A DNA stretch of 64,000 nucleotides, taken from a virus. The stretch spans positions 1 to 64,000 of the IMG/VR virus record IMGVR_UViG_3300042922_000836; one strand, given 5' to 3'. The notes under the pieces are model-generated. The model did not search any database and was not told where the DNA came from. It worked only from the letters and a program-made list of their open reading frames with translations. Below, piece by piece: positions 1,469 through 16,074 of this stretch. How positions within the stretch are numbered: the stretch's first letter is position 1; the number at the start of each line of letters is the position of its first letter. The position numbers were made by a program, and so were the translations under genes.

Positions 1469-4030
1469 ATAGCATTAAACAAACAAATATATATTTATTC
1501 AGTGGATACAAGTGCTTTTTATAATGTAGATGAGTTAGAAATACATAATAACATAAACAAATTACATAAAGAAAAAAAGGAAAAATCCATTGATAAAGAA
1601 AACAAAATAAAAATAAATAAAGAGATAAAAGAAAATAAAACAAAGCTTTATTCTATCTTTAAAAATAATATAGGGATAAGACAGTTAAATCCTAAGTCTT
1701 TAAATAAATATAGAATTATATCTGTATTTGAATCCGCATTAACAAGAACGTTAAAAATGGAAACAAACCAATTGTATGATGATTTAATCGTTGTCCAAAC
1801 TTATTTCTTTGATATTATTGAGGACATTATACTTGATGGATTTTATCTTAATGGCGAAAAGTATGTTTGCTTTACTGCATCGGCTGGACAGATACGTACA
1901 AAGAAAACTGTATTCATTAAAGAACGGTTATTATCAAAATATTGCGAAACATTAATGTGCGGTTTAAATCTTGATATTATTAATGCATGTGGTGGAATTA
2001 ATGTTAATAAATATCTGGCTTATCTTGCTTTATGTAATAGTGCAACAGATGTTTGGAATGAATTTGATATTAACAAATCAATTGTAATTGATGATATGGA
2101 AACTATTGTACATGGTACTGTTGATTTTATTGATGATGAAATTTATAAGATAGAACGCAAGATAATGGATATTCCTATTACTCACACTGATGGTTGCGGT
2201 ATGATGTTACCATCATTAAGTCGAAAAAACATGATGTGCAGATTACCTTGGGTAAAAGGATTATTGGTTTCTTTCCCTTTCACAAAATTTATCCGAGAGG
2301 CAAATGCAAAAGATCCGTCAAAGAACCATGCATTATTAACAGATATATATGGGGTAGAGCATGATGTATTAAAAGAAGATATTCAAGTGATTTTTACCAA
2401 AAGCCAATTTAAGATGTATAAATATTATAAGAGTTGGGATGAGTACAAAAATAATTATATTAAATATAATTGTACTGCGGGAATGTGCAATGAAGAAGAA
2501 GATTATTTTGAAGATGCTAAGATAAATTATCAGATGATACAAACATTAACTGATATGACAGATGATGAGCTTCGCAAAATTGCATCAGCATCACTTGATA
2601 GAATATCAAAATTAGCTATTGATAGGAAAACAATGCTTAAAGTCTTTGGTGTAACCGAGGGAAATAAAAATAAAACTAATCTTCAACAAGCTTTGGAAAT
2701 ATATCCTGAACTTTTAGCAGATACATATACAAAGGAAATCTTAAAACAAATTAAGAAAAAGTTGGTCAAAGATGCAAGGTCGGCAAAACTTGATATAAAA
2801 GGAAAATATACATTTATAATTCCTGACTTATATGCGTTTTGTGAATACATATTCTTAGGAGATAAAAATCCAAAAGGCTTATTGGAAAACGGACAAGTAT
2901 CTTGTAAAATATATAAAAAGCATCCAAAGCTTGATTGTTTGCGAAGTCCTCATTTATATAGAGAACATGCAGTACGGAATAATGTAATAAATAGCGAAAT
3001 AGAAAAATGGTTCACCACTTATGGGTTATATACAAGCTGTCATGATTTAATAAGCAAAGTCCTTCAATTTGATGTTGATGGTGATAAATCATTGGTTTGT
3101 GCCGATGAAACAATAATTACGGTTGCTGAAAGAAACATGAAAGATGTTGTACCTTTATATTATAAAATGCGTAAAGCGGGAGCAGAAAAAATTGATAATA
3201 AAAAAATATTTCAAGGTTTGGTTTCTGCTTATACAGGTGGCAATATCGGTATGATTAGCAATGATATTACAAAGATCTGGAACAGTAATAATGTTAATTT
3301 GGATGTTATCAAGCTGTTATGTATGGAAAACAACTTTACAATTGACTTTGCAAAGACATTATATAAACCCACAAGACCAAAACATATAAAAAGTCTTATC
3401 TCAAGATATACCAGAGCAAAAACTCCACATTTCTTTATTTATGCAAAAGACAAGACAAAAACTCAAATTGAATCTATTAATGATAGTATCGTAAATAAGC
3501 TTGATAAAATCATACCTAATAAGAGAATTAATTTTCAAGCTGATAATTTGGGCAAGTTCAATTATAAATATCTTATGCATGATAATAAGACTGAAATTAA
3601 TGAAGATATTATAAAAAAATATGATGAACTCAATACAAAAAATCATTTTACCATGAATAATCAGGATATTGAAAATAGCAATATTGATTATCTGTATCAG
3701 GAAATAAGGAACAAATTATTAGATGGTTATGATAAATTGTATGTGGTTGATGTTTTGATAAAATATCTTTATGGAGTTAAAAACAGTAAACACAAAGAAA
3801 CTTTATGGATAAGTTTCGGTGACATTATCATTGAAAACTTAAAAAATAATCTCAAAGAAGATTTGGAAAACGGATATATCCTTTGTTCAGATTGCGGAAA
3901 AAGAATTCCTAAGAATTCTAACAGTCAAAATATGTGTGAAGAATGTTATGTAATTCATAGAAAAGAATATTACCGTAACAAAAAACGTGAACAAAGACGA
4001 AAATCTTGTCCACAAATAGAAATTGCTTGA
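1469..4030 (+). CDS. yonO: YonO-like single-subunit DNA-dependent RNA polymerase
   Basis: ~850 aa with catalytic QFDVDGD, RSPH, HTDGCG and a C-terminal CxxC...CxxC. Frame is open to ATA at 1469, 8 nt after SD AGGGGG (ORF track starts at 1502). Confidence 0.88.
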   Translation: MALNKQIYIYSVDTSAFYNVDELEIHNNINKLHKEKKEKSIDKENKIKINKEIKENKTKLYSIFKNNIGIRQLNPKSLNKYRIISVFESALTRTLKMETNQLYDDLIVVQTYFFDIIEDIILDGFYLNGEKYVCFTASAGQIRTKKTVFIKERLLSKYCETLMCGLNLDIINACGGINVNKYLAYLALCNSATDVWNEFDINKSIVIDDMETIVHGTVDFIDDEIYKIERKIMDIPITHTDGCGMMLPSLSRKNMMCRLPWVKGLLVSFPFTKFIREANAKDPSKNHALLTDIYGVEHDVLKEDIQVIFTKSQFKMYKYYKSWDEYKNNYIKYNCTAGMCNEEEDYFEDAKINYQMIQTLTDMTDDELRKIASASLDRISKLAIDRKTMLKVFGVTEGNKNKTNLQQALEIYPELLADTYTKEILKQIKKKLVKDARSAKLDIKGKYTFIIPDLYAFCEYIFLGDKNPKGLLENGQVSCKIYKKHPKLDCLRSPHLYREHAVRNNVINSEIEKWFTTYGLYTSCHDLISKVLQFDVDGDKSLVCADETIITVAERNMKDVVPLYYKMRKAGAEKIDNKKIFQGLVSAYTGGNIGMISNDITKIWNSNNVNLDVIKLLCMENNFTIDFAKTLYKPTRPKHIKSLISRYTRAKTPHFFIYAKDKTKTQIESINDSIVNKLDKIIPNKRINFQADNLGKFNYKYLMHDNKTEINEDIIKKYDELNTKNHFTMNNQDIENSNIDYLYQEIRNKLLDGYDKLYVVDVLIKYLYGVKNSKHKETLWISFGDIIIENLKNNLKEDLENGYILCSDCGKRIPKNSNSQNMCEECYVIHRKEYYRNKKREQRRKSCPQIEIA

Positions 4031-4864: not shown

Positions 4865-5831
4865 TATTTCCCAATATGAAGAAATAAAAAGAATTGTAAA
4901 AGGTAAATTAGTTGATAAAACTATTAAAGATGATTTTGAAAGTTTAAGTGAACCTCTTTTTGGCGAGGGAAATTGTTTTAGTTCTGATGAAGTTCGTAAA
5001 CGTATGTATGGTATGAAATATTTAATTGATGTACTTGAAATTGAACGTTATTTTGAAAAATTGTATAAAAAGATATTATCGATTTCAGATTTACATACTC
5101 CCTTTCAACTCCCTATTGAAACATTTAAAGATTATAAAGAAAAGGTAGACATTTTAGTATTAAACGGTGATTTACAAGATGCACAGTCTGTAAGTAAATT
5201 CCCTAAAAAGTATAGGATTCCGTTTGATGAAGAAATGATTGAAACAAGACAATACATAATTGATTTAATAAATTATATTAAGCCAAAAAAAGTTTATATA
5301 AATAAAGGTAATCATGAAGATAGATTATTAAAATTATTATCTGATAAACTTAATGACGATTTATTAAGAATATTGCCTGATTCTCCCCTTGATTTAATTA
5401 TAAATGATGGGTTTAAAATTACAAATAGAAGAAATAAAACAGAAACATGGTATTCACCTGTTAAAGAAATATTTAATGATATTGAGATTATTTATACAAG
5501 AGATTGGAAGTGTAAAATCGGTAAAACAATTTTTGCACATCCCCTTGCTTATTCGTCTGGTATGTTAAAGACAACTGAAAAAGCTGTTAATTATTTCTTG
5601 CGTGAAGATAGAGATTTCGATACTATTGTTTTAGCACATACTCATAAATTGGGTAGTTTCTTGCAAGGTAATATTTATTTATATGAGCAAGGATGTAGCT
5701 GTAAAACAGAGGAATTAAGCTATACAGATGGTTATCTCACTTTACCAGCACAAAAAGGATTTATATTTGTATGTCAAGATAAAGATGGTAATCTTATTCA
5801 TGATAAAACAAAATTAATCGAAATTAAATAA
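4857..5831 (+). CDS. calcineurin-like metallophosphoesterase
   Basis: Motifs SDLH, NGD, GNHE, HP, AHTH; start chosen at ATG 4857. Confidence 0.85.
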   Translation: MNNISQYEEIKRIVKGKLVDKTIKDDFESLSEPLFGEGNCFSSDEVRKRMYGMKYLIDVLEIERYFEKLYKKILSISDLHTPFQLPIETFKDYKEKVDILVLNGDLQDAQSVSKFPKKYRIPFDEEMIETRQYIIDLINYIKPKKVYINKGNHEDRLLKLLSDKLNDDLLRILPDSPLDLIINDGFKITNRRNKTETWYSPVKEIFNDIEIIYTRDWKCKIGKTIFAHPLAYSSGMLKTTEKAVNYFLREDRDFDTIVLAHTHKLGSFLQGNIYLYEQGCSCKTEELSYTDGYLTLPAQKGFIFVCQDKDGNLIHDKTKLIEIK

Positions 5832-5839
5832 AATTCAAG

Positions 5840-6350
5840 TTCGTACTGTGATGTTCTTCGGACTCATGGTCTTATAATTTGCGATCTTGCTACTGATCTC
5901 TACGGAACAGTAGTTAAAGTGTGACTGACACTGTAAAAATCTGAAACTGATTTTCTGAGTATAAAAGCCAGAAAATTGCTTGTAGAACGTATGTGTCTAC
6001 TGTTGGTTTGACAACGATAAAAACAAACATGTTTATCGGACTTCGTGAGTCGATGGTTGGCAGACAACATAAAAATCAGTCAAATCTCAAAGATGGGGTT
6101 TACTACTGCGGTAGTTCTCCCTACTTTGTAGAATGGGTATGAAACCCCAACAAAGAAGATTAACTAATATAGTGTGATGGTTTTTCGACTATCCAAATTA
6201 AAAAAGGGTTACCTTTTTGAATGAGAGTGATAGAAATATTGCTTTCTATTTTTACAAAGTAGAAAGTAGTCGGTACACTACTTTTTATACGGAATTGCGG
6301 TGAGTCATCTGCGGATGCCATCTTAGAATAGTGGTTACGACTGCTATTCT
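5840..6350 (+). ncRNA. large ornate structured ncRNA candidate (ROOL/GOLLD-like context)
   Basis: ~510-nt region with no credible ORF, GC-richer than its flanks, with more than 10 nested stems, long-range pairings and a C(UUCG)G loop; lies directly 5' of the tRNAs. Confidence 0.65.
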
Positions 6351-6357
6351 TATATAT

Positions 6358-6433
6358 TGCGGAATGTAAGCAGTGGTAGCTGGTTAGGCTCATAACCTAA
6401 AGGTCGAGAGTTCGAATCTCTCTTCCGCATCCA
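6358..6433 (+). tRNA. tRNA-CAT (Met, initiator-like body; Ile2 not excluded)
   Basis: Acceptor TGCGGAA/TTCCGCA, anticodon arm TTAGG-CTCATAA-CCTAA, T loop TTCGAAT, encoded CCA. Confidence 0.92.
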
Positions 6434-6436
6434 ATT

Positions 6437-6500
6437 GATTATGTAACAGACGAATAGGACAACTTAATTATTGCTATTTTCAGTCTGCATTTACATAATC
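6437..6500 (+). ncRNA. long interrupted hairpin between tRNAs
   Basis: Nested stems GATTATGTAA/TTACATAATC (10 bp), CAGAC/GTCTG and GAATAG/CTATTT. Confidence 0.45.
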
Positions 6501-6506
6501 TTATAT

Positions 6507-6580
6507 CGAAGAATAGTGTAATGGTAACACAACGGACTTTGACTCCGTTATTCTAAGTTCGAATCTTAGTTCTTCAACCA
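6507..6580 (+). tRNA. tRNA-Gln(TTG)
   Basis: Anticodon arm ACGGA-CTTTGAC-TCCGT, T loop TTCGAAT, encoded CCA, C1:A72 mismatch. Confidence 0.92.
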
Positions 6581-6585
6581 AATAT

Positions 6586-6659
6586 CGAGAAATAGTGTAA
6601 TGATAGCACAGTAGATTTGGGATCTACCAGTTTGGGTTTAATTCCTGATTTTTCGACCA
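6586..6659 (+). tRNA. tRNA-Pro(TGG), atypical D and T loops
   Basis: Acceptor CGAGAAA/TTTTTCG, anticodon arm GTAGA-TTTGGGA-TCTAC, CCA; T loop reads TTTAATT and the D loop lacks GG. Confidence 0.75.
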
Positions 6660-6684
6660 AGGAAACCCCTTGCCTTAGTAGGGA
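6659..6684 (+). ncRNA. ToxI-like H-type pseudoknot (unit A)
   Basis: S1 AAGG/CCTT, S2 CCCT/AGGG; resembles the recalled B. thuringiensis ToxI core. Confidence 0.45.
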
Positions 6685-6686
6685 TA

Positions 6687-6787
6687 TATACAGTGGTGGA
6701 ATAGGTAAACACACAAATACGGTTGATAGGCAACGGAGTTTTGGAAAGGTCTATTATATAAGGTGCAAATCCTTATCTGTATATCAA
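6687..6787 (+). ncRNA. tRNA-like RNA without a canonical anticodon arm
   Basis: Acceptor TATACAG/CTGTATA, Leu-type D arm GTGGAATAGGTAAACAC, T arm ATAAGG-TGCAAAT-CCTTAT; central ~45 nt are non-canonical. Confidence 0.55.
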
Positions 6788-6860
6788 AGAGGTTGTTGAT
6801 ACCTTTAAATCAAGCTTTATATTCAAGGTGTTTCGCTACCTAAAATGCGAAGTTTATATG
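6788..6860 (+). ncRNA. tandem ToxI-like pseudoknots (units B, C; 36-nt period)
   Basis: B: AGAGGT/ACCTTT plus TTGAT/ATCAA. C: AGGTG/TACCT plus TTTCGC/GCGAAG. Both end in AAG(C)TTTATAT. Confidence 0.65.
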
Positions 6861-6868
6861 CATGTGAG

Positions 6869-6933
6869 TGACTACTTTAGTGTCAAATTTAAAACGAGTG
6901 TTCCCTACTTTAATGGGAAATATTTTTTAAGTG
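6869..6933 (+). ncRNA. tandem H-type pseudoknots (units D, E; 33-nt period)
   Basis: TGAC-TACTTTAGT-GTCA-N10-GAGTG and TCCC-TACTTTAAT-GGGA-N10-AAGTG: same geometry, compensatory stem 1. Confidence 0.6.
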
Positions 6934-6960
6934 CTTCGCTATAAGCAACTTATAACAGAA

Positions 6961-6996
6961 CCTCTCGCACCTCTTAATAATGTGTACCAGTAGAGG
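6961..6996 (+). ncRNA. abiF-motif-like structured RNA
   Basis: Outer stem CCTCT/AGAGG and inner stem GCAC/GTGT; the reverse complement CTGGTACACATTATTAAGAGGTGCG resembles the element recalled beside Abi_2/AbiF genes. Confidence 0.45.
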
Positions 6997-7032
6997 GCAT
7001 TATGGTTTACGGTTTTCCTTAAACCGTTCTAT

Positions 7033-7108
7033 GTGGGTGTAGCTTAGTTGGTAGAGCAAGGAGCTTTTAACTCCGAGGTCAGAGGTTCGATTCCTTTCAC
7101 CCGCACCA
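7033..7108 (+). tRNA. tRNA-Lys(TTT)
   Basis: Acceptor GTGGGTG/CACCCGC, anticodon loop CTTTTAA, T loop TTCGATT, encoded CCA. Confidence 0.93.
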
Positions 7109-7173
7109 TTTATTTCTCAATAATTCTTATTTTCGTTCATATTTTATATCTCTCATTTGGGATTATTACTTTG

Positions 7174-7261
7174 ATTGTTGCCTATCGTCTGGCAACTAAA
7201 ACATTGACGATTTGCTTTCAATTGTCACCTACCGTCTGGTGACTGATAAATTGACGGTTTG
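7174..7261 (+). ncRNA. tandem H-type pseudoknots (units F, G; 47-nt period; CptI-like size)
   Basis: F: GTTGCC/GGCAAC plus ATCGTC/GACGAT. G: GTCACC/GGTGAC plus ACCGTC/GACGGT. Both stems covary. Confidence 0.72.
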
Positions 7262-7268
7262 ATAGAAA

Positions 7269-7300
7269 TACCCGCCCTTTATTGGGTGGGTAAAATTTTT
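7269..7300 (+). terminator. GC-rich hairpin closing the RNA island
   Basis: TACCCGCCC-TTTATT-GGGTGGGTA followed by AAATTTTTT. Confidence 0.55.
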
Positions 7301-7302
7301 TA

Positions 7303-7851
7303 ATGAAAGAAGTGCTGAAAATTTTATATACATTAAACCTTGTAACATATATACTTAAAAATAAAGATGGTCATTATATATCATTACCATTACCAAAATA
7401 TATTCAAGTAGGAAAAGAATATTATGATGAAAATGAAATTAAACAAGATCAAATAATTGATATGTATGTTAAAGATTATGCCAAAAAGAATAATTGTGAA
7501 ATAATAACATCAACCGAGAGTTCGTTTAACATTCCTAAAATGTTTAGTTATCAAGTTAATTATAAAGATTTATATAGTTATCATTTTAGAGATTATAGAT
7601 GTTCAAAATGGCATGTTGTAGAATATTTAAAATATAAAAAATGTTTAAAAAAACATAAAGAAGATTTGATTTATACACAAGAGAATTTTCAATTTGTAAC
7701 AAGCTGTAGTGGTGAATATACAATATCTAATACTATATATGATGCTGTTATATGTAATCATTGTAATATAACTTTTTGTTTAACAGATATAAACAAAGGT
7801 TTCCTTTATGCTGTAAAAACAGATATTGGTAGATTATTGGGAAAATACTGA
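7303..7851 (+). CDS. hypothetical protein
   Basis: 182-aa ORF with CxxC near the C-terminus; start uncertain. Confidence 0.6.
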   Translation: MKEVLKILYTLNLVTYILKNKDGHYISLPLPKYIQVGKEYYDENEIKQDQIIDMYVKDYAKKNNCEIITSTESSFNIPKMFSYQVNYKDLYSYHFRDYRCSKWHVVEYLKYKKCLKKHKEDLIYTQENFQFVTSCSGEYTISNTIYDAVICNHCNITFCLTDINKGFLYAVKTDIGRLLGKY

Positions 7852-7854
7852 TTT

Positions 7855-7890
7855 AAACACTTTCAATTAAATTGAGAGTGTTTTATTTTA
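7855..7890 (+). terminator. intrinsic terminator
   Basis: AAACACTTTCAAT...ATTGAGAGTGTTT plus T-rich tail. Confidence 0.6.
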
Positions 7891-7931
7891 TTGTGTAATA
7901 AATATTTGTAAAAGAAAGGTAGGTAATTTTT

Positions 7932-9035
7932 ATTTCCGTAAAGAAAAAAGAAGTTGAACAACCGAAGGTAGAAAAGAAAAGATATACTTGCCTTCATTGT
8001 GAAAAAGAAAAATCCGAGGATGATTTTTATATAAGCAAATGGTCAAAATTCTGGAATTATTCAGATAAACATGTTTTATTTTGTACCAATTGTTTAAATA
8101 GTGAATTTGAAGAAAATTGTAATAAATTTCATTCTGCAAAAACAGCATTAATTATTGCTTGTCATAGATTAGATGTTCCCTTTTATGCATCCCTTTATGA
8201 AAGTGTTATAACAAATAATACAAACTTCGGTATAGGTATGTATCTTAGGCTTATTAATGGCAGACAGTATCAATATAAAACTTTCTTAAATAGTTTAATC
8301 GATGGTGAACTGTCGAAATCAGATAAAGAAATAAAGCAAGAAAAAGAAGCTAAATGGTCTAAACGTGATTTACAAAACAAAGATAGAGTTATAAATAAAA
8401 TTTTAAAATATGATCCATATGAGGACTATGATGATTTTTCAAGAAAATTTATGTTTAATCTCACATCCGATTATCTTGTTGATGAAAGTATTATAGAAGA
8501 TCCTCATAAACTCCAAGGTGTTATTGAGATTGTAAAGACATTTCAGCAAGTAGATGTTATTAATAAACAAATTAATTTAGAAACAAATAATAGCACATTA
8601 AATGCAGATAAATTTAAAACTCTAACAGAAATAAAGAAGAATTGTTTAGATTCAATTAATAAATTTGCAAAAGATAACGGTTTGTCTGCTTCATTAACAA
8701 ATAAAGGTGCAAAAGGTTCAAGCAGTTTAGCATTTTATGTTAAAAGCTTAGATGAAATGCATTTTACAGAATCACAAATTAATTTATTTGATATTGCAAC
8801 ATGTGAATCAATGCGACAATTTGCTGATATAAGCAATGAAAGTATTGTAAAACAAATACATTTAAATGCAGATGAATTAGGTGATTTAAAAGAACAACAA
8901 ACAAGGTTGTTGCAAAATTATAAATTACAGAATATGAAAATTAAAGAGGAAAACAGATTATTAAAAATTAAGTTAATTGAAAATAATATTCCATTTGATA
9001 ATTCCTTTCCGAATAAAGAGGATGAAATAAAATAA
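7932..9035 (+). CDS. Zn-finger protein, putative terminase small subunit
   Basis: Frame is open 102 codons upstream of the ORF-track ATG (8238) to ATT at 7932 after AGAAAGGTAGGT, adding CxxC...CxxC; abuts the large terminase. Confidence 0.6.
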   Translation: MSVKKKEVEQPKVEKKRYTCLHCEKEKSEDDFYISKWSKFWNYSDKHVLFCTNCLNSEFEENCNKFHSAKTALIIACHRLDVPFYASLYESVITNNTNFGIGMYLRLINGRQYQYKTFLNSLIDGELSKSDKEIKQEKEAKWSKRDLQNKDRVINKILKYDPYEDYDDFSRKFMFNLTSDYLVDESIIEDPHKLQGVIEIVKTFQQVDVINKQINLETNNSTLNADKFKTLTEIKKNCLDSINKFAKDNGLSASLTNKGAKGSSSLAFYVKSLDEMHFTESQINLFDIATCESMRQFADISNESIVKQIHLNADELGDLKEQQTRLLQNYKLQNMKIKEENRLLKIKLIENNIPFDNSFPNKEDEIK

Positions 9036-11368
9036 TGGATTTTCTATTTAAAAGAACAAGAGAAGAACTTTCAGAAAGAAAGTTAGAGGCATATCAAAAA
9101 TATGCAGAAATAATTCAATGGGGTAGAAAATTTCCTGTCAGATTCTGCGAAAGGTTTTACGGAATTGAATTGTTAGACCATCAAAGGTATGTTTTCATGT
9201 GTTCTTGGATTACTCCGAGAAACGTTTGGTGTCAATCTCGTGGATCTGGTAAAGCACTTGCATTGGATACAAAAATTCCAACATCTAATGGTTTTACAAC
9301 GATGAGAAATATTCAAGTCGGAGATTATATATTAGATTGTAATGGAAATCCTACCAAGGTTACATATACTTCAGAAATATTTATTGGCAATAGATGTTAT
9401 AAAGTTGCCTTTGATGATGGTGAAGAAATTATAGCTGATGAAAATCATTTATGGTCTGTTTATAGTGATTTTTTAACACCAGATGGTATTGATAAATATG
9501 GATTTAAAACAATTAATACAAGACATTTAGCATATCGTTATTCTGTTCTAAGTGCAAATAATTGTTATTCAGATATGTTAATTCCTACATTAGATAAAGA
9601 TAAATTCAAATATATAACTTCAATTGTTGAAGTACCCTCTGTACCGACTAAATGTATTCAAGTTGATAATGAAAGAGGGTTATTTTTATGTGGTGAGAAA
9701 AATACAGTCACTCATAATACAACATTGGTAGCACCTTTTGTTATGGCAAAATCAAATTTGTTTGCAAAACATCAAACATATATTATGTCTGGTGTTGGTT
9801 CTCAATCACAAGAATGTTTCTTAAAGATAGAGAAAATAGCAAAAAATGAAATTGCATCATTTACAGGATTAACTGAATTCTTCTTGGGCGAGATTGAGGC
9901 TAATCATGCTACCGCAGATGGTTTTGTTCATAATCCAGCATCATTTACTTATAAGCTGTTTAACGACAGTAGAGTTAATTCGCTTAATGGTGCATTTGAT
10001 AATAACCGTAGTAAGAGAAGTAATTTGAATATATATGATGAAAGCGGATTTGCCCCAGAGGATTTATTTGTAACCTCAATGCCTTTCATAACTCAGGATT
10101 CAAACTTTGCTTTGGGTGGAAAAATTAATCTTGAAATAGAACCCGCTAAAATTCCTAATCAAGCAATTTTCGCAAGTTCTGCTTCAGATATGAGTACATA
10201 TTTTTATCAAAAAGCTTATAAAGAATATGCTAAAAAGATGTTCATAGGAGATACGGATTATTTTGTTGCTGATGTTAATGCTACCGTTATGTTTAATGCA
10301 AAATACAACGGTAAAATATATCCTGTTTCTTTGTTAACTCAAAAAGAAGTTGAAGATGAGTTAAAGAAGAATAAAGAAAAAGCTGAACGTGAATATTTTA
10401 ATAAATTCAGTGTTGATGGTGGAGATCATCAACCGTTTAAAAGAAGTGTTATTAATCAATATAGTAAATTAAGAGTTCCTATACTTAGAAATGATGGAAA
10501 TCGTAGATTCGTTATAGCTTACGATCCCGCAAGACAAATAGATAATAGTTTTAGTTTGGTTGCAGAACTTATAAATGATCCAGAACTTGGTTATATGATG
10601 GAAATTTGTAATGGTATAAATTTTATGGATATTGGCAAGAAAAATAAAACACCTATGCGGTATCCTGAACAAATTTCATATTTAAAACAAATGATTTTAA
10701 ATTATAACGGTTCTGGTAAACAAGATTATGAAAATCTTGAAAAACTTTTGATAGATAGTGGTTCTGGTGGTGGTGGTCGATATATCGGTGATGATTTAAT
10801 GGAAGATTGGTATGATAATAACGGTCACAAACATAAAGGAATTATCGATAAAGTTGAACATGAGGAATATTTACCTAAATTTCAAAATGCTTTGGACAAG
10901 CTTAAATTATTAAGTCCTAAGAAATATAAGGTTGAAGCTTTTGATGGTTTAGTTGAAATGCTTAATGCGGGGTTAATTTCCTTTACAGAAAATTATGACC
11001 AAAAGGGTTACATAATGCTCCATAAAGATAAAGAATATGAATACATTGATGAAACTGATGGTCTGTCTAAAAAGGATATAAATAGAGAAATGATTCAATA
11101 TACTTTGTCTTTTGAAGAAGAAATGGCTTTAACACAAATCGACTTAGCAAAAGAAGAAATTTATAACTTCTACAGATATGATGGTACAAACGGTAATGTT
11201 AGATATGATTTATCACCTGACCAAGCAAATAAAATGCACGATGATAGAGCATATTGTTTAGCCATGCTGGGTTGGTATCTTCAGCAAATTCGTAGAGGTC
11301 AGATTATTAATAAACCAAAAAATAAAAATAATAATAAACCTCATTGTGTAACAGCAGTTGATTATTAA
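9035..11368 (+). CDS. terminase large subunit containing an intein
   Basis: Walker A SRGSGK|T, Walker B IYDESG, nuclease motifs AYDPAR and HDDRAY. Confidence 0.92.
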   Translation: MDFLFKRTREELSERKLEAYQKYAEIIQWGRKFPVRFCERFYGIELLDHQRYVFMCSWITPRNVWCQSRGSGKALALDTKIPTSNGFTTMRNIQVGDYILDCNGNPTKVTYTSEIFIGNRCYKVAFDDGEEIIADENHLWSVYSDFLTPDGIDKYGFKTINTRHLAYRYSVLSANNCYSDMLIPTLDKDKFKYITSIVEVPSVPTKCIQVDNERGLFLCGEKNTVTHNTTLVAPFVMAKSNLFAKHQTYIMSGVGSQSQECFLKIEKIAKNEIASFTGLTEFFLGEIEANHATADGFVHNPASFTYKLFNDSRVNSLNGAFDNNRSKRSNLNIYDESGFAPEDLFVTSMPFITQDSNFALGGKINLEIEPAKIPNQAIFASSASDMSTYFYQKAYKEYAKKMFIGDTDYFVADVNATVMFNAKYNGKIYPVSLLTQKEVEDELKKNKEKAEREYFNKFSVDGGDHQPFKRSVINQYSKLRVPILRNDGNRRFVIAYDPARQIDNSFSLVAELINDPELGYMMEICNGINFMDIGKKNKTPMRYPEQISYLKQMILNYNGSGKQDYENLEKLLIDSGSGGGGRYIGDDLMEDWYDNNGHKHKGIIDKVEHEEYLPKFQNALDKLKLLSPKKYKVEAFDGLVEMLNAGLISFTENYDQKGYIMLHKDKEYEYIDETDGLSKKDINREMIQYTLSFEEEMALTQIDLAKEEIYNFYRYDGTNGNVRYDLSPDQANKMHDDRAYCLAMLGWYLQQIRRGQIINKPKNKNNNKPHCVTAVDY
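9254..9718 (+). mobile_element. class 3 mini-intein (155 aa)
   Basis: Starts ALALDT, ends VTHN before Thr+1; WCT triplet (HLW, TKC, VTHN); no endonuclease domain. Confidence 0.88.
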
Positions 11369-12975: not shown

Positions 12976-13009
12976 TTAAAATTGATTGTTAAGAAAGGTG
13001 GTGATATAC

Positions 13010-14563
13010 ATGGATAACGAAAACATTGCTCTATCTAATTGTGGTGTTGTATGTAGTGAAGCTACAGAAGATGATGTTTCATTAACAGCTAAATTTATTA
13101 TCTGCGATTTTTTCCCTAATTTTAATGACTTAATGTTAAATAGAAAAACTATCAGCAATTGGTTAAATACTCTTATTACACAGCCTGTTGTTGGTGAACT
13201 TGGAGTTACCGATGCGGGTGTTTCTGATTTTGAAAGTCATAATTTGTTCCCTGTTAAAAGAGTTGCAAAAGATGGTTCAGTTTATCAAGACACTAAATTC
13301 TTTACTTCTGCTATGGGAGTATTTACTGATGTATCTATTGAAAATATCAAAAATAAAGAATACATAGTTGCCACAGCAAAAATATGGAAACGGTTTCCTG
13401 AATTTTGTGCTGTTATTAAAAGGCGAATTGCTGAAGATACTTTACATACTTCTTTTGAAATAGCAGTTAAAAACTTTCATATAGAAAAAATTAATGGTAA
13501 AAAAATAAAAGTAGTTGATGATGCTGTCTTTCTTGGACATGCTTTACTTGGCTCAAAAATAACTCCCGCATATGCGGATAGTCGAATGATTGAAGTTGCA
13601 AGTCAGAATGAGAATCAAGATTTAATCAATGCGATAGTAAAAGATATAGAAAATATTAGTCCAGAAAAGGAGGGCAAAATTTTGGAAAATGATTTAAATA
13701 AACCTGTTGAAACTCAAATAGCTACGGAAAATACAAATGTTCCTGTAGTAGAACAAAACAAAGAAAATGAAATACTTCAAGTGGCAAATGTTACTCCTGA
13801 AAATGGTGAGAAAACAGAGCCTGTCACATCCAATGAAAATAAAGAGAACACCAAAGAAGTATCAGCAATCACAATGTATGATTTATATAAGTCTATAAGA
13901 CAAGCAGTATCCGAAAAAATAAATAAAGATAGATGGGATTTTGATATATACTATCTTTTCCCCAATGAAAAAATCGCATGGGTAAGATATTGGGATGATG
14001 CAAGTGAGTTAGACATTCATGTATTTACATATACAGTTGAAAATGATGTTGTTGCTGTTGGTGAACCTACTGCTATGAAACTTACTGTTTCTGTTGCAGA
14101 AATTAATAAAACAGTTGCTGAATTAAATACAAAACTTCAGGAAAAAGATAATTCGCTTATTAAGGCAAGTCAAACAATACAAACTTTAAATACTACAGTC
14201 GCTACTTTGACTCCCTACAAAGACAAGTTTGAGAAAACTGAACAAGATCGAATAGCTAAAGAATTAGCCGATAAACAAACCACCCTTAAAGCTTATGCCT
14301 TAAAGAGTGGTTATATTTTTGAAAAAGAACTTGCTGAGTCGGATGATATTAAGCAGATGATTGAAAAAGTAGATGAAGTTGGTATTAAGAATGTTATAGC
14401 TGAAAGATTTATGAAATCTCTTGAAAAACCGCAGACGAAAGAGATTGAAACTTCAACAGCAAATGTTCCGCAAATAACTCCTAAAGCAAACATCACAAAT
14501 GATGAAGATAATTCAGAAACCGTAGATTACAAATCATTCATTAAGTCTTACTTGAGAAAGTAA
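13010..14563 (+). CDS. prohead protease/scaffold protein
   Basis: N-terminal protease-like domain (TSFEI...GHALLG...PAY) and C-terminal coiled coil; ATG at 13010 after AAAGGTGG. Confidence 0.7.
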   Translation: MDNENIALSNCGVVCSEATEDDVSLTAKFIICDFFPNFNDLMLNRKTISNWLNTLITQPVVGELGVTDAGVSDFESHNLFPVKRVAKDGSVYQDTKFFTSAMGVFTDVSIENIKNKEYIVATAKIWKRFPEFCAVIKRRIAEDTLHTSFEIAVKNFHIEKINGKKIKVVDDAVFLGHALLGSKITPAYADSRMIEVASQNENQDLINAIVKDIENISPEKEGKILENDLNKPVETQIATENTNVPVVEQNKENEILQVANVTPENGEKTEPVTSNENKENTKEVSAITMYDLYKSIRQAVSEKINKDRWDFDIYYLFPNEKIAWVRYWDDASELDIHVFTYTVENDVVAVGEPTAMKLTVSVAEINKTVAELNTKLQEKDNSLIKASQTIQTLNTTVATLTPYKDKFEKTEQDRIAKELADKQTTLKAYALKSGYIFEKELAESDDIKQMIEKVDEVGIKNVIAERFMKSLEKPQTKEIETSTANVPQITPKANITNDEDNSETVDYKSFIKSYLRK

Positions 14564-15084: not shown

Positions 15085-16074
15085 ATGTTAAAAACTGAAA
15101 TCGCAGAAGTTTTAAATAAAGATGGCAAAGTCTATGAAATTGCCGAAAAGATTAACTATAATCAGACATTAACTTCTGAGGAAAAAGAAGTATCCACTCT
15201 GTGCGATGCTTGGGTTAAAGAAGTTTCCGAAAAGGGCGATCCTGATAAGGAAATTGCGGCTTTTATCAAAAAGACAATAAATGAGGAAGTTTATAATGCA
15301 CCTGATGAACTGCTTGATGGTATGTTTGAACGTGGCTCTGTTGGTGAATTTGATGATTATCAGGTTGAAAAAGCACCTGTTAATACTCTTATTGCACATG
15401 AAGCCGCTAAAGGTGGTAACGTTGATAGATCTTATATAGATTTCTCTGTATTAAGACCTACATGGAAGAACAGACAGGTAGAAACTGATTTGTCTTATGT
15501 TGATATGCGTAGAAATGGTTTCAAATCCGTTGCTTTGCTGACAACTTTCGCAAATGAGGCTCTTAAAAATGCCATGTTCTATGATATCTTTGGTTTGGTT
15601 GATACAGCTATCGTTGGTGGCGATCAAGCTATTGCAGAAGCTGGTGCATTACCGACACAAACATCTATGGACAAGTTATCTCTCTATCTGAATGATAGAA
15701 ATCCCCAAGGTGCTGTAGCAACAACTCTGTCCAAATATGCACAGGCAATTATGCGTATGGAAGGTTATGCTACATATATGTCCGATGCTATGAAAGATGA
15801 GTTTAACCGTTACGGTCTTGCTCGTTTCTTCGATGGTGTTAAAGTTGCATCTATTTCTGGTGCTAAGAAACAAGGAAATGGTTCTCTGTTAATTCCTGAT
15901 AAGAAAATCTTTGGTACTGCTGGTATCATCGGTACTCTTGATATGAAGGGCGAAATCCATGTATACGAGGATCTTGATAATCAGAACGAAGTTTTGAAAA
16001 TCAAAGTTGCTGACTTTACATATGGCTATTGCATCACCGACATATCCAAAGTATGCAAAATTACAATGGCTTAA
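15085..16074 (+). CDS. major capsid protein
   Basis: 329 aa, expected position in the head module, followed by a terminator hairpin. Confidence 0.8.
   Translation: MLKTEIAEVLNKDGKVYEIAEKINYNQTLTSEEKEVSTLCDAWVKEVSEKGDPDKEIAAFIKKTINEEVYNAPDELLDGMFERGSVGEFDDYQVEKAPVNTLIAHEAAKGGNVDRSYIDFSVLRPTWKNRQVETDLSYVDMRRNGFKSVALLTTFANEALKNAMFYDIFGLVDTAIVGGDQAIAEAGALPTQTSMDKLSLYLNDRNPQGAVATTLSKYAQAIMRMEGYATYMSDAMKDEFNRYGLARFFDGVKVASISGAKKQGNGSLLIPDKKIFGTAGIIGTLDMKGEIHVYEDLDNQNEVLKIKVADFTYGYCITDISKVCKITMA

What the first reader, a model, noticed from the sequence alone, without database searches (positions are those of the whole stretch)
5840..6350. ~510-nt ornate non-coding RNA upstream of the tRNAs
Local stems seen include CTACTG/CAGTAG (5890/5908), ATTTTCTG/CAGAAAAT (5950/5969), GTAGA/TCTAC, GGGGTTT/AAACCCC (6095/6142, enclosing sub-hairpins), ATAGAAA/TTTCTAT, AAAGTAGT/ACTACTTT and a terminal 10-bp hairpin (6325-6350). 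Long-range pairings include TGACTGA/TCAGTCA (5922/6076) and 5866-5884 with 6308-6321, plus a possible CGATAAA/TTTATCG pseudoknot. ROOL and GOLLD are known large RNAs beside phage tRNAs in Firmicutes. The size is nearer ROOL, but I cannot confirm the family; it may be new.
Basis: partly seen in the sequence, partly recalled or inferred. Interest (0 to 1): 0.72.

Follow-up and report, generated by a model that had tools for sequence, protein, structure and literature searches.

The report
Folded leader region before phage tRNAs
The stretch is a real gene-free, unusually G+C-rich and hairpin-rich piece of a large SPbeta-like soil phage, but it is not a ROOL or GOLLD RNA; it looks like the untranslated leader that sits between the phage's own RNA polymerase gene and its late genes, and only two short pieces of it recur in other phages.

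Summary
Window 5832-6357 (+) is ORF-free, G+C-enriched (0.361; genome 0.289) and folds better than shuffles (z -4.81; 25 control windows ranged +1.6 to -4.2). It opens the longest and most G+C-rich gene-free gap of the 137-kb phage, and all four tRNAs of the phage lie in that gap.

No Rfam family matches it. ROOL fails even at E<=10, although the same search scores two related phages at 291 and 282 bits.

No homologue of the whole stretch turned up in 67 related loci, 27 related phage records, GenBank phages or exact-word scans of IMG/VR, so covariation could not be tested.

Two short pieces are conserved. Block A (6135-6158) is a 24-nt hairpin plus A-rich tail, found in 12 other phage contigs. 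It is always intergenic and gene-co-oriented, and was single-copy in each whole record searched. Block B (6293-6302) is a 10-mer shared with SPbeta and Perkons in the non-coding DNA downstream of yonO.

The phage encodes a YonO orthologue (53% identical). In SPbeta the matching gap holds the single YonO late start site and an unannotated ncRNA.

Best reading: a lineage-specific leader RNA region of the late operon, not one conserved ornate RNA. Transcription is untested.

The parts
5832..6357 (+). ORF-free, G+C-enriched (0.361), hairpin-rich stretch between the phosphoesterase gene and tRNA-Met: the finding itself
5845..5870 (+). First hairpin, 10 nt after the stop of the upstream gene, with G-U pairs; followed by TCTTATAATTT. 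Possible weak terminator of the upstream gene.
   Evidence: pair probability 0.87; repeat D5; not called as a terminator by the scan
5889..5914 (+). Hairpin (7 pairs plus 3 pairs)
   Evidence: probability 0.94-0.99
5949..5977 (+). Hairpin with a 9-pair stem
   Evidence: probability 0.95
6005..6086 (+). Predicted four-way junction: closing helix 6005-6012/6079-6086 around three hairpins (6015-6038, 6039-6051, 6056-6068)
   Evidence: probabilities 0.55, 0.63, 0.85 and 0.73; a covariance model of 6004-6150 found no counterpart in 19 related phage records
6086..6131 (+). Extended hairpin with an internal loop, directly upstream of Block A
   Evidence: MFE, centroid and MEA structures
6135..6158 (+). 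Block A: conserved 24-nt element, a GGG-(8 nt)-CCC hairpin followed by AACAAAGAAG. Candidate promoter or leader signal.
6174..6288 (+). Four successive hairpins (6174-6194, 6201-6218, 6223-6246, 6259-6288)
6293..6302 (+). Block B: the 10-mer AATTGCGGTG, shared with SPbeta, Goe14 and Perkons in the non-coding DNA downstream of yonO
6325..6350 (+). 11-pair terminal hairpin, 7 nt before tRNA-Met. Terminator-like by consensus; inferred to be a 3' protective hairpin after RNase P cleavage.
6358..7108 (+). tRNA-Met, tRNA-Gln, tRNA-Pro and tRNA-Lys with non-coding spacers: the rest of the same gene-free island (5832-7302)
7269..7292 (+). G+C-rich terminator-like hairpin with a T run at the end of the island
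1502..4030 (+). YonO-type single-chain RNA polymerase gene
   Evidence: PF05183, E 2.6e-15; 53% identity to SPbeta yonO and 60% to Clostridium phage D-1873
4791..5831 (+). Calcineurin-like phosphoesterase gene that ends at the start of the finding
   Evidence: PF00149, E 5.4e-11

Best explanation
Window 5832-6357 is the first third of a 1.47-kb gene-free RNA island (5832-7302). The island lies between the phage RNA-polymerase (YonO-type) and phosphoesterase genes and the block of presumed structural genes of an SPbeta-like temperate phage.

It is the positional counterpart of the 1.68-kb gene-free, G+C-rich gap between yonN and yonK in SPbeta. [quoted passage not shown]

I read the stretch as untranslated leader RNA, transcribed on the + strand together with the four tRNAs. 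RNase P cleavage at the 5' end of tRNA-Met (6358) would free the upstream piece, which would end in a stable hairpin (6325-6350).

Two short conserved signals lie inside it:
- Block A (6135-6158) is a candidate promoter or leader recognition site at the head of the late genes.
- Block B (6293-6302) is shared with SPbeta-type phages.

The remaining roughly 490 nt are lineage-specific hairpins.

Shown here: no coding capacity, G+C enrichment, excess folding, absence of any Rfam family, the two conserved blocks, and the synteny. Inferred: transcription, the strand, RNase P release, and any promoter role.
For: **Context**
- The island is the longest of 22 ORF-free gaps of at least 250 nt in the 137-kb genome. 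It also has the highest G+C (0.37; the others are 0.19-0.34) and holds all 4 tRNAs.
- G+C of 5832-6357 is 0.361, against a genome mean of 0.289 (sd 0.033). Only 2.9% of 2732 windows reach that value. Long G+C-rich intergenic regions are the published signature of structured RNA genes (abstract of PMC8632094).

**Folding**
- z -4.81 on + and -3.07 on -. None of 25 control windows is as low.
- Local z is negative across the whole stretch but not in the upstream coding DNA.

**Link to YonO**
- The 842-aa protein is 53% identical to SPbeta YonO.
- SPbeta has yonO, yonN, a 1681-nt unannotated gap with G+C 0.416 (locus 0.344), then yonK and yonJ.
- Forrest et al. [quoted passage not shown]

**Block B**
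- The exact 10-mer occurs only 3 times in 1.07 Mb of held sequence, both strands searched. The three places are the window, SPbeta and Perkons; each is on the yonO strand, in non-coding DNA downstream of yonO.
- It is also present in Goe14.

**Block A**
- Besides the window it is present in 12 other loci: L041, L071, L095, L096-L103 and L112.
- In all 12 loci examined (the window and 11 others; L112 not examined) it is intergenic and co-oriented with the flanking genes. The flanking sequence is unrelated.
- It is present exactly once in 7 of 7 whole records that carry it.
- In L102 and L103 the genes 2.6-4 kb downstream are homologues of window 7923-8990, 9059-9253 and 9722-11308.
- In the 3 records with a detectable yonO (G000, G035, G036), Block A lies 2-11 kb downstream of yonO on the same strand.

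**Same kind of locus elsewhere carries other orphan RNA motifs**
- DUF3800-VIII in the SPbeta gap, and drum in an unannotated gap about 4 kb downstream of yonO in D-1873.
- Skipping-rope beside Block A in L071 and L098.
- Skipping-rope and DUF3800-VIII are annotated between hup and the yonK-like gene of Goe14.
- ROOL lies near the phosphoesterase gene in L011 and L012.
Against: - There are no RNA data. The only public run holding the sequence is a DNA run that may be the source sample, so transcription, ends and strand are all inferred.
- Block A is absent from SPbeta, D-1873 and Perkons within the 14-20 kb examined around yonO. It is also absent from 19 of 19 whole records of phages related through the phosphoesterase gene, 8 of them at least 90% complete. 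So it cannot be a universal YonO promoter.
- The one Block-A-like word in SPbeta (L104 12341) loses its 5' arm in Goe14, so that resemblance is doubtful.
- YonO was found in only 2 of 8 Block A records. The largest, G031 (78% complete), had none.
- A scan with the stem left free found no alternative complementary stem: 6 GGG/CCC, 1 GGG/CTC and 8 unrelated hits. There is therefore no covariation for even this hairpin.
- Block B is only 10 nt. I estimate a chance match in the island at roughly 1 in 1000, not negligible given how many words were looked at.
- In the window the phosphoesterase gene lies upstream of the gap, but in SPbeta, L041 and L071 it lies downstream. The synteny is approximate.
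- The fold z-score is extreme but not far outside the genome's own spread (lowest control -4.2).
Confidence: 0.5

Rival explanations
1. A discrete, new class of large (~470-520 nt) ornate RNA. It would fill the niche that ROOL or GOLLD fill in related phages, be released from the tRNA precursor, and possibly self-assemble.
For: - Size, tRNA adjacency and phage context match what is described for ROOL and GOLLD (PMC5737381, ROOL section read; bioRxiv 10.1101/2024.12.08.627333, passages read).
- Two of 27 related loci carry true ROOL beside a tRNA, whereas this phage has no Rfam RNA other than tRNAs.
- Predicted features include a four-way junction, a possible 17-pair long-range closing helix 5921-5943/6290-6308 (probability about 0.38) and a 3' terminal hairpin.
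- z is -4.81.
Against: - No homologue of the whole stretch was found anywhere, so there is no covariation.
- The centroid structure is almost entirely local hairpins.
- The only conserved piece, Block A, works elsewhere inside intergenic regions as short as about 95 nt (L100). That argues for a modular element rather than the core of a large fold.
Confidence: 0.15
2. A string of independent small RNAs or hairpins, such as decoys or anti-defence RNAs. An earlier follow-up in this scan proposed this for the spacers between and after the tRNAs.
For: - The structure is about 15 mostly local hairpins.
- A hairpin with loop UACUUU at 6113-6127 resembles one at 6897-6911 in the downstream spacer (repeat D14).
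- There is a weak abiF-motif hit downstream (25.9 bits against a cut-off of 37).
- Related phages carry small orphan RNA motifs in this kind of locus.
Against: - There are no tandem repeats in the stretch.
- No Rfam small-RNA family matches inside 5832-6357 even at E<=10.
- The k-mer recurrences (CTACT 5 times against 0.84 expected) do not survive correction for the 1024 words tested.
Confidence: 0.15
3. Spacer DNA without a function of its own: decayed tRNA genes and terminator or processing hairpins left in a tRNA island.
For: - Short resemblances to the phage's own tRNAs: 6169-6190 to the D-arm and 3' end of tRNA-Gln and tRNA-Pro, and 6320-6333 to the 5' end of tRNA-Gln (repeats D3, D16 and D17).
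- Relics of tRNAs would raise G+C and give stems.
- The stretch is an orphan in all searches.
Against: - No tRNA-like hit at E<=10 nor with ARAGORN at an 80% threshold.
- Blocks A and B are conserved across distant phages.
- The fold excess is spread over the whole 526 nt.
Confidence: 0.15
4. A very divergent ROOL or GOLLD.
For: Context only: tRNAs, a phage, and relatives that carry ROOL.
Against: - No ROOL or GOLLD match at E<=10 with permissive filters on 1.7 kb.
- No ROOL match in the whole genome, although the positive controls scored 291 and 282 bits.
- None of the conserved ROOL words visible in the model alignment is present.
Confidence: 0.03

Closest known systems
[quoted passage not shown] 2017, PMC5467207). 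In the relative Goe14 it is annotated with skipping-rope and DUF3800-VIII RNAs.
   Same: - It lies downstream of the yonO gene on the same strand and ahead of the structural genes.
- It is a 1.5-1.7 kb ORF-free gap, richer in G+C than its surroundings.
- It shares the 10-mer Block B.
- It hosts non-coding RNAs.
   Different: - There is no alignable similarity beyond Block B.
- The window has tRNAs and no skipping-rope or DUF3800-VIII match.
- The phosphoesterase (yonJ-like) gene is upstream of the gap here and downstream of it in SPbeta.
- The SPbeta start site could not be mapped onto the shared block because the B. subtilis 168 genome is not held and the paper's supplements are closed.
ROOL RNA (Rfam RF03087)
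   Same: About 500-600 nt, phage-borne, next to tRNAs, function unknown. It is present near the same phosphoesterase gene in 2 of 27 related loci.
   Different: - There is no match to the covariance model at E<=10.
- The conserved words are absent.
[quoted passage not shown]
GOLLD RNA
   Same: A large phage RNA beside or interleaved with tRNAs; one studied example lies downstream of a tRNA-Met.
   Different: There is no Rfam match, and the stretch is shorter.
Promoters of single-subunit phage RNA polymerases such as T7, T3 and SP6: roughly 20-nt invariant words (recalled; not from a call)
   Same: Block A is an invariant, asymmetric 24-nt word. It is intergenic, co-oriented with the genes, and in L100 sits between a terminator hairpin and the next gene's ribosome-binding site.
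   Different: - It is single-copy per genome.
- It is absent from SPbeta, D-1873 and Perkons.
- YonO is a two-barrel polymerase, not T7-like.
- No start-site data exist.

Membership tests
ROOL (RF03087) | Score at or above the Rfam gathering cut-off (99.1 bits) against the ROOL covariance model | tested here: not met
   There was no hit at gathering score, none at E<=10 on 5600-7300 and none in the whole 137-kb record. In the same search the positive controls G011 and G012 scored 291 and 282 bits.
ROOL (RF03087) | [quoted passage not shown] | tested here: inconclusive
   The stretch is 526 nt. The thermodynamic prediction gives one four-way junction (probability 0.55) and otherwise local hairpins. 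No homologues were found, so no covariation test was possible.
ROOL / GOLLD | Located in phages or prophages, often next to tRNAs | tested here: met
   It ends 0 nt before tRNA-Met, in a 137-kb virus record with terminal repeats.
GOLLD, OLE, HEARO, raiA, tmRNA, RNase P, group I and II introns (all of Rfam 15) | A match to the family's covariance model | tested here: not met
   cmscan of all 4227 families found only 4 tRNAs at gathering score. At E<=10, the hits inside 5832-6357 were only weak chance-level ones, at 16-23 bits against cut-offs of 35.6-90.
tRNA or tRNA pseudogene | Cloverleaf detectable by a tRNA model | tested here: not met
   There was no extra tRNA hit at E<=10. ARAGORN found none at the default or 80% threshold. 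At 70% it made one call at 6258-6344 among several obviously spurious ones.
Late-operon leader / ncRNA region of SPbeta-like (YonO) phages | Downstream of yonO on the same strand and upstream of the structural gene block | tested here: met
   The YonO orthologue is at 1502-4030. Genes from 7923 onward are homologous to the genes that follow Block A in L102 and L103. The ORF at 12986-14563 is similar to the gene after the portal gene of Perkons.
Late-operon leader / ncRNA region of SPbeta-like (YonO) phages | Long ORF-free gap enriched in G+C | tested here: met
   Window: 1471 nt, G+C 0.37, against a genome value of 0.289. SPbeta: 1681 nt, 0.416 against 0.344.
Late-operon leader / ncRNA region of SPbeta-like (YonO) phages | Shared sequence with the SPbeta region | tested here: met
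   Block B, the 10-mer, occurs only in the window, SPbeta and Perkons among 1.07 Mb held, and also in Goe14. Nothing else aligns. The Block-A-like word in SPbeta is doubtful.
Late-operon leader / ncRNA region of SPbeta-like (YonO) phages | A YonO-dependent transcription start within it | not testable with these tools
   No RNA run holds the sequence.
Type III antitoxin-like repeat arrays (ToxI, CptI type) | Tandem repeats of about 30-50 nt | tested here: not met
   Tandem Repeats Finder found no array inside 5836-6357.

The most novel reading that the evidence does not exclude
The ~500 nt between the phosphoesterase gene and tRNA-Met may be a discrete, abundant, RNase-P-released structured RNA of a new class. 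It would take the place that ROOL or GOLLD occupy in related phages. It would be built around the invariant Block A hairpin, with Block A and Block B acting as recognition sites for the phage's YonO-type RNA polymerase or a partner. That would give the first sequence handle on how this polymerase family finds its start site.
Probability: 0.15. Interest if true: 0.75.

Novelty: new variant of a known kind. Interest (0 to 1): 0.45.

Why it matters
SPbeta-type phages use a minimal single-chain relative of cellular RNA polymerases (YonO). Its promoter is still undefined; Forrest et al. 2017 say so explicitly (passage read).

This work places the candidate RNA in the equivalent leader region of an uncultivated SPbeta-like phage. 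It also picks out two short conserved words there: a 24-nt hairpin-plus-tail found in 12 other phage contigs, and a 10-mer shared with SPbeta, Goe14 and Perkons. Both are cheap to test as promoter or leader signals.

It also shows that this locus type is a hot spot where different phages keep different orphan RNAs: ROOL, skipping-rope, DUF3800-VIII, drum, tRNAs, and here an unmatched 500-nt folded stretch. That makes it a useful place to look for their shared function.

If the stretch is only a leader with hairpins, the finding is ordinary.

Tried and rejected
**Searches for a homologue of the whole stretch (all negative)**
- blastn of 5832-7302 against 50,697 GenBank phages matched only the tRNA parts, at most 6% coverage.
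- nhmmer and sensitive blastn against 27, then 67, related loci found only the tRNAs, with short upstream extensions.
- BLAST against whole related phage records covered 3 records (2 further loci were not held) and 24 records. The best E was 0.02, on matches of at most 30 nt.
- The own genome holds a single copy.
- Exact-word scans of IMG/VR with five window words gave 0, 0, 2, 5 and 1 hits. None of the hits extended beyond about 20 nt.
- A covariance model of 6004-6150 found only itself among 20 records; the next best E was 3.1.
- Leader-only Smith-Waterman alignments against 13 distinct tRNA-Met leaders gave z from -0.9 to +1.3 against 100 shuffles. The 'shared hairpin plus linker before tRNA-Met' that I saw in alignment A1 is therefore not significant on its own.
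- tblastx against the loci gave nothing below E 0.45.
- Earlier-findings look-ups by sequence and by relatives returned none.

**Closer relatives through the phosphoesterase protein**
- The best was 62% identity in IMG/VR, 70% in JGI metagenomes on a 2.3-kb contig with no gap after the gene, one Clostridium MAG contig in GTDB genomes, and 72% in the large protein collection.

**Expression**
- No RNA holder was listed. The only run listed is one DNA run, which may be the source sample.

**Other ideas tested and dropped**
- The word TCTTATAWWTT follows both the first and the last hairpin, but it is not enriched in the window (52 hits against 46 expected).
- The phage's private promoter (23 copies at 100-121 kb) has no copy near the island.
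- K-mer enrichments are not significant after correction for multiple testing.
- Block A is absent from GenBank phages by blastn of a 38-nt query, and absent from SPbeta, D-1873 and Perkons near yonO.
- Pfam gave no name for the three large genes after the island.
- Literature: searches for 'yonN' plus 'yonK' found 0 papers. Searches on YonO promoters found no paper that defines the promoter. The supplementary figure and table of PMC5467207, which show the start site and primers, are closed and could bear on Block B.
- No complex prediction or structure prediction was run.
Full report
**What is there**

The window is the first 64 kb of a 137,094-bp IMG/VR virus record with direct terminal repeats. 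The phosphoesterase gene ends at 5831, and no ORF of 80 aa or more follows until 7303. Four tRNAs lie in this gap: Met 6358-6433, Gln 6507-6580, Pro 6586-6659 and Lys 7033-7108. They are the only tRNAs of the genome.

The finding is the 526 nt before tRNA-Met. Of the 22 ORF-free gaps of at least 250 nt in the genome, this one (1471 nt) is the longest and has the highest G+C: 0.37, against 0.19-0.34 for the others. The 526 nt alone have G+C 0.361. The genome mean is 0.289 (sd 0.033), and only 2.9% of 2732 windows reach 0.361.

The small ORFs inside have no family match and no protein-level similarity to related loci. By reading the sequence, none is preceded by a Shine-Dalgarno word.

**Is the folding more than chance?**

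- The + strand folds to -149 kcal/mol, z -4.81, with 0 of 100 shuffles as good. The - strand gives -113.3 kcal/mol, z -3.07.
- As a control I folded 25 windows of the same length spread over the window. Their z ranged from +1.61 to -4.20 with mean -1.10. The finding is the most extreme, but the genome has a tail: 3 of 25 are at or below -3.3.
- In 120-nt windows the signal is spread over the whole stretch. Thirteen windows average -2.26 on + and -1.33 on -, and + is lower in 10 of 13. The six windows in the upstream coding region run from -1.44 to +1.16.
Two stems (GGGGTTT/AAACCCC and ATAGAAA/TTTCTAT) and both proposed long-range pairings have probabilities of 0.00-0.05.
- The consensus picture is about 15 local hairpins and one four-way junction at 6005-6086 (closing helix 0.55). 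One possible long closing helix, 5921-5943 with 6290-6308, has probability about 0.38.

**Known families**

cmscan of all 4227 Rfam families finds only the tRNAs at gathering score. At E<=10 on 1.7 kb there is nothing credible inside the stretch. The only near-miss in the island is an abiF-motif hit at 6961-6997 (25.9 bits; cut-off 37), which lies outside this finding.

ROOL deserves a separate statement because related phages carry it. Among 27 loci fetched through the phosphoesterase gene, L011 and L012 have full-length ROOL (291 and 282 bits), each followed by a tRNA-Asn. Run on whole records, the ROOL model hits 2 of 21 (G011 and G012) and not this phage, even at E<=10. The rest of this genome has no Rfam match at all. 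No tRNA relic is detectable. There are no tandem repeats.

**Homologues of the whole stretch**

None was found; the list of searches is under Tried and rejected. The phage has no close relative in the collections. The best phosphoesterase identities are 62-72%, and the closest contigs have no gap after that gene. In relatives that keep both flanking genes, the interval is shorter and coding, so the island is an accessory insertion.

**Two conserved words**

A BLAST of the stretch against the one MAG that carries a related phosphoesterase gave two 26-nt matches. These led to Block A at 6135-6158: GGG, eight bases, CCC, then AACAAAGAAG.

- It occurs in L041, L071 and L095.
- An IUPAC scan with 20 specified bases found it in 8 IMG/VR contigs. 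By my own estimate, well under one hit would be expected by chance.
- A second scan found one more contig, with a G-U-compatible change in the stem (L112).
- In all 12 loci examined (the window and 11 others; L112 not examined) it is intergenic and on the strand of the flanking genes, and the next ORF starts 46-622 nt later.
- The flanks do not align, although a hairpin often precedes it.
- It is present exactly once in each of the 7 whole records that carry it, and in 0 of 19 records of the phosphoesterase-related phages.
- Leaving the stem free gave no alternative complementary stems. The element is therefore conserved as sequence, which suits a protein recognition site (promoter or RNA-binding site) better than a purely structural RNA.
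- In L100 it sits between a strong terminator-like hairpin and the ribosome-binding site of the next gene, in an intergenic space of about 95 nt. So it is self-contained.

Block B at 6293-6302 (AATTGCGGTG) came from comparing with cultivated phages, as described below.

**The YonO connection**

The 842-aa protein at 1502-4030 hits Pfam RdRP. It is 53% identical over 91% of its length to YonO of SPbeta, and 60% identical to a protein of Clostridium phage D-1873.

In SPbeta the gene order is yonO, yonN, a 1681-nt unannotated gap (G+C 0.416 against 0.344 for the locus), yonK, yonJ (exonuclease), then terminase and portal.

Forrest et al. 2017 (PMC5467207; I read the passages around 'promoter', 'late genes', 'TSS' and 'yonK') report the following. 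[quoted passage not shown] The promoter remains to be determined. A review says the same of the single polycistronic late transcript (PMC8270828, passage read).

The window's island has the same position: after yonO and before a gene block that is shared with L102 and L103 and partly with Perkons.

The exact 10-mer Block B occurs only three times in 1.07 Mb of held sequence. The three places are the window, the SPbeta gap (L104 12392) and the yonO-hup spacer of Perkons (L106 5134), all on the yonO strand. Goe14 also has it.

SPbeta also has a Block-A-like word 50 nt upstream of Block B, but Goe14 does not keep its 5' arm. I count that resemblance as inconclusive.

The same kind of gap carries other orphan RNA motifs in other phages. 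DUF3800-VIII is in SPbeta and drum in D-1873. Skipping-rope is in L071 and L098. Skipping-rope and DUF3800-VIII are annotated in Goe14.

**How it most likely works**

Shown:
- The stretch is a non-coding, G+C-rich, hairpin-rich segment on the gene strand.
- It is joined without a gap to tRNA-Met.
- It lies at the boundary between the yonO module and the presumed late genes.
- It contains two words conserved in other phages.

Inferred:
- It is transcribed with the tRNAs as a leader.
- RNase P, which defines every tRNA 5' end (established knowledge), would cut at 6357/6358. That would leave an upstream RNA whose last 33 nt form an 11-pair hairpin, which would protect it from 3' exonucleases.
- Block A or Block B or both are recognition signals for late transcription.

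If Block A is a promoter, the RNA made from it would be only about 200 nt of leader plus the tRNAs. The 300 nt before it would then belong to the 3' end of the upstream unit.

I give this leader reading 0.5. The rivals are a discrete new large RNA (0.15), a set of small independent RNAs (0.15), a functionless spacer (0.15) and a divergent ROOL (0.03).

**Against my reading**

- There are no RNA data at all.
- Block A is absent from SPbeta, D-1873 and Perkons near yonO, and from all 19 phosphoesterase-related records.
- YonO was detectable in only 2 of 8 Block A records, and not in the most complete one.
- Block B is short.
- The gene order around the gap differs from SPbeta.
- The z-score control shows that this genome has other strongly folding windows.

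**Novelty and score**

The stretch is not a member of any described RNA family. Its locus type (a leader with ncRNA at the head of the YonO late operon) is known but barely characterised. Block A appears to be undescribed: there is no Rfam match and no match in GenBank phages. I did not search the literature for the motif itself.

I rate it a new variant of a known kind, interest 0.45. It is a good, cheap experimental lead on YonO promoter recognition and on the RNA cargo of this locus, but expression and structure conservation are both unproven.

An earlier follow-up in this scan (e1-6162955) described the spacers after the tRNAs as small antitoxin-like RNAs. Another (e1-6147858) described a private promoter class elsewhere in the genome. 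I re-derived that promoter (23 copies) and found none near this stretch.

Noticed in passing
window 7852-8237 (frame of the ORF 8238-9035): This 'gap' is an open frame that continues into the 265-aa ORF. Homologues in L102 and L103 align from 7923, and the translation shows a zinc-ribbon-like CxxC...CxxC N-terminus with no ATG, GTG or TTG before 8238. The gene probably starts near 7920-7940 at a non-canonical start codon. This also explains the low fold z (-4.2) of the control window 7801-8326 less well than a coding reading does.
   Followed up: partly
L011 3339-3939 and L012 3319-3935; L009 2801-2866; L005 2623-2659 and L006 253-289: Related phages carry full-length ROOL followed by tRNA-Asn, a RAGATH-18 RNA, and abiF-motif RNAs just after tRNA-Thr. 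All lie within a few kb of the same phosphoesterase gene.
   Followed up: partly
L021 897-2335, L024 2736-4162, L026 1-1736, L027 1102-2947 and relatives: A group of gut and other phages has 0.85-1.4 kb ORF-free, G+C-raised gaps around tRNA-Met and tRNA-Lys with no Rfam match. These are further candidate unknown RNAs.
   Followed up: no
L104 (SPbeta) 13198-13263; L105 (D-1873) 15356-15463; L071 349-421; L098 627-764: DUF3800-VIII, drum and skipping-rope RNA motifs lie in or near the non-coding DNA downstream of yonO or beside the phosphoesterase gene in different phages. Goe14's record annotates skipping-rope and DUF3800-VIII there.
   Followed up: partly
G000 122702-123704 and 124497-124855 (outside the window): These are further ORF-free gaps with raised G+C (0.33-0.34; some windows reach 0.38) and no Rfam match.
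   Followed up: no
G000 100329-121233, - strand: There are 23 copies of a two-part promoter-like word (GTAAGGAA, 15 nt, TGTTATATAA). All are on one strand, confined to 21 kb, with none elsewhere in the genome.
   Followed up: partly
window 6434-6506: The A+T-rich (G+C 0.26) 73-nt spacer between tRNA-Met and tRNA-Gln has a perfect 10-nt inverted repeat, 6437-6446/6491-6500. Local fold z is -3.7 on + and -3.9 on -.
   Followed up: no
window 6113-6127 and 6897-6911: The word AGTxxTCCCTACTTT (13 of 15 identical; CCCTACTTT occurs only at these two places in 64 kb) links a hairpin just before Block A to a hairpin in the spacer after tRNA-Pro. It may be chance.
   Followed up: partly
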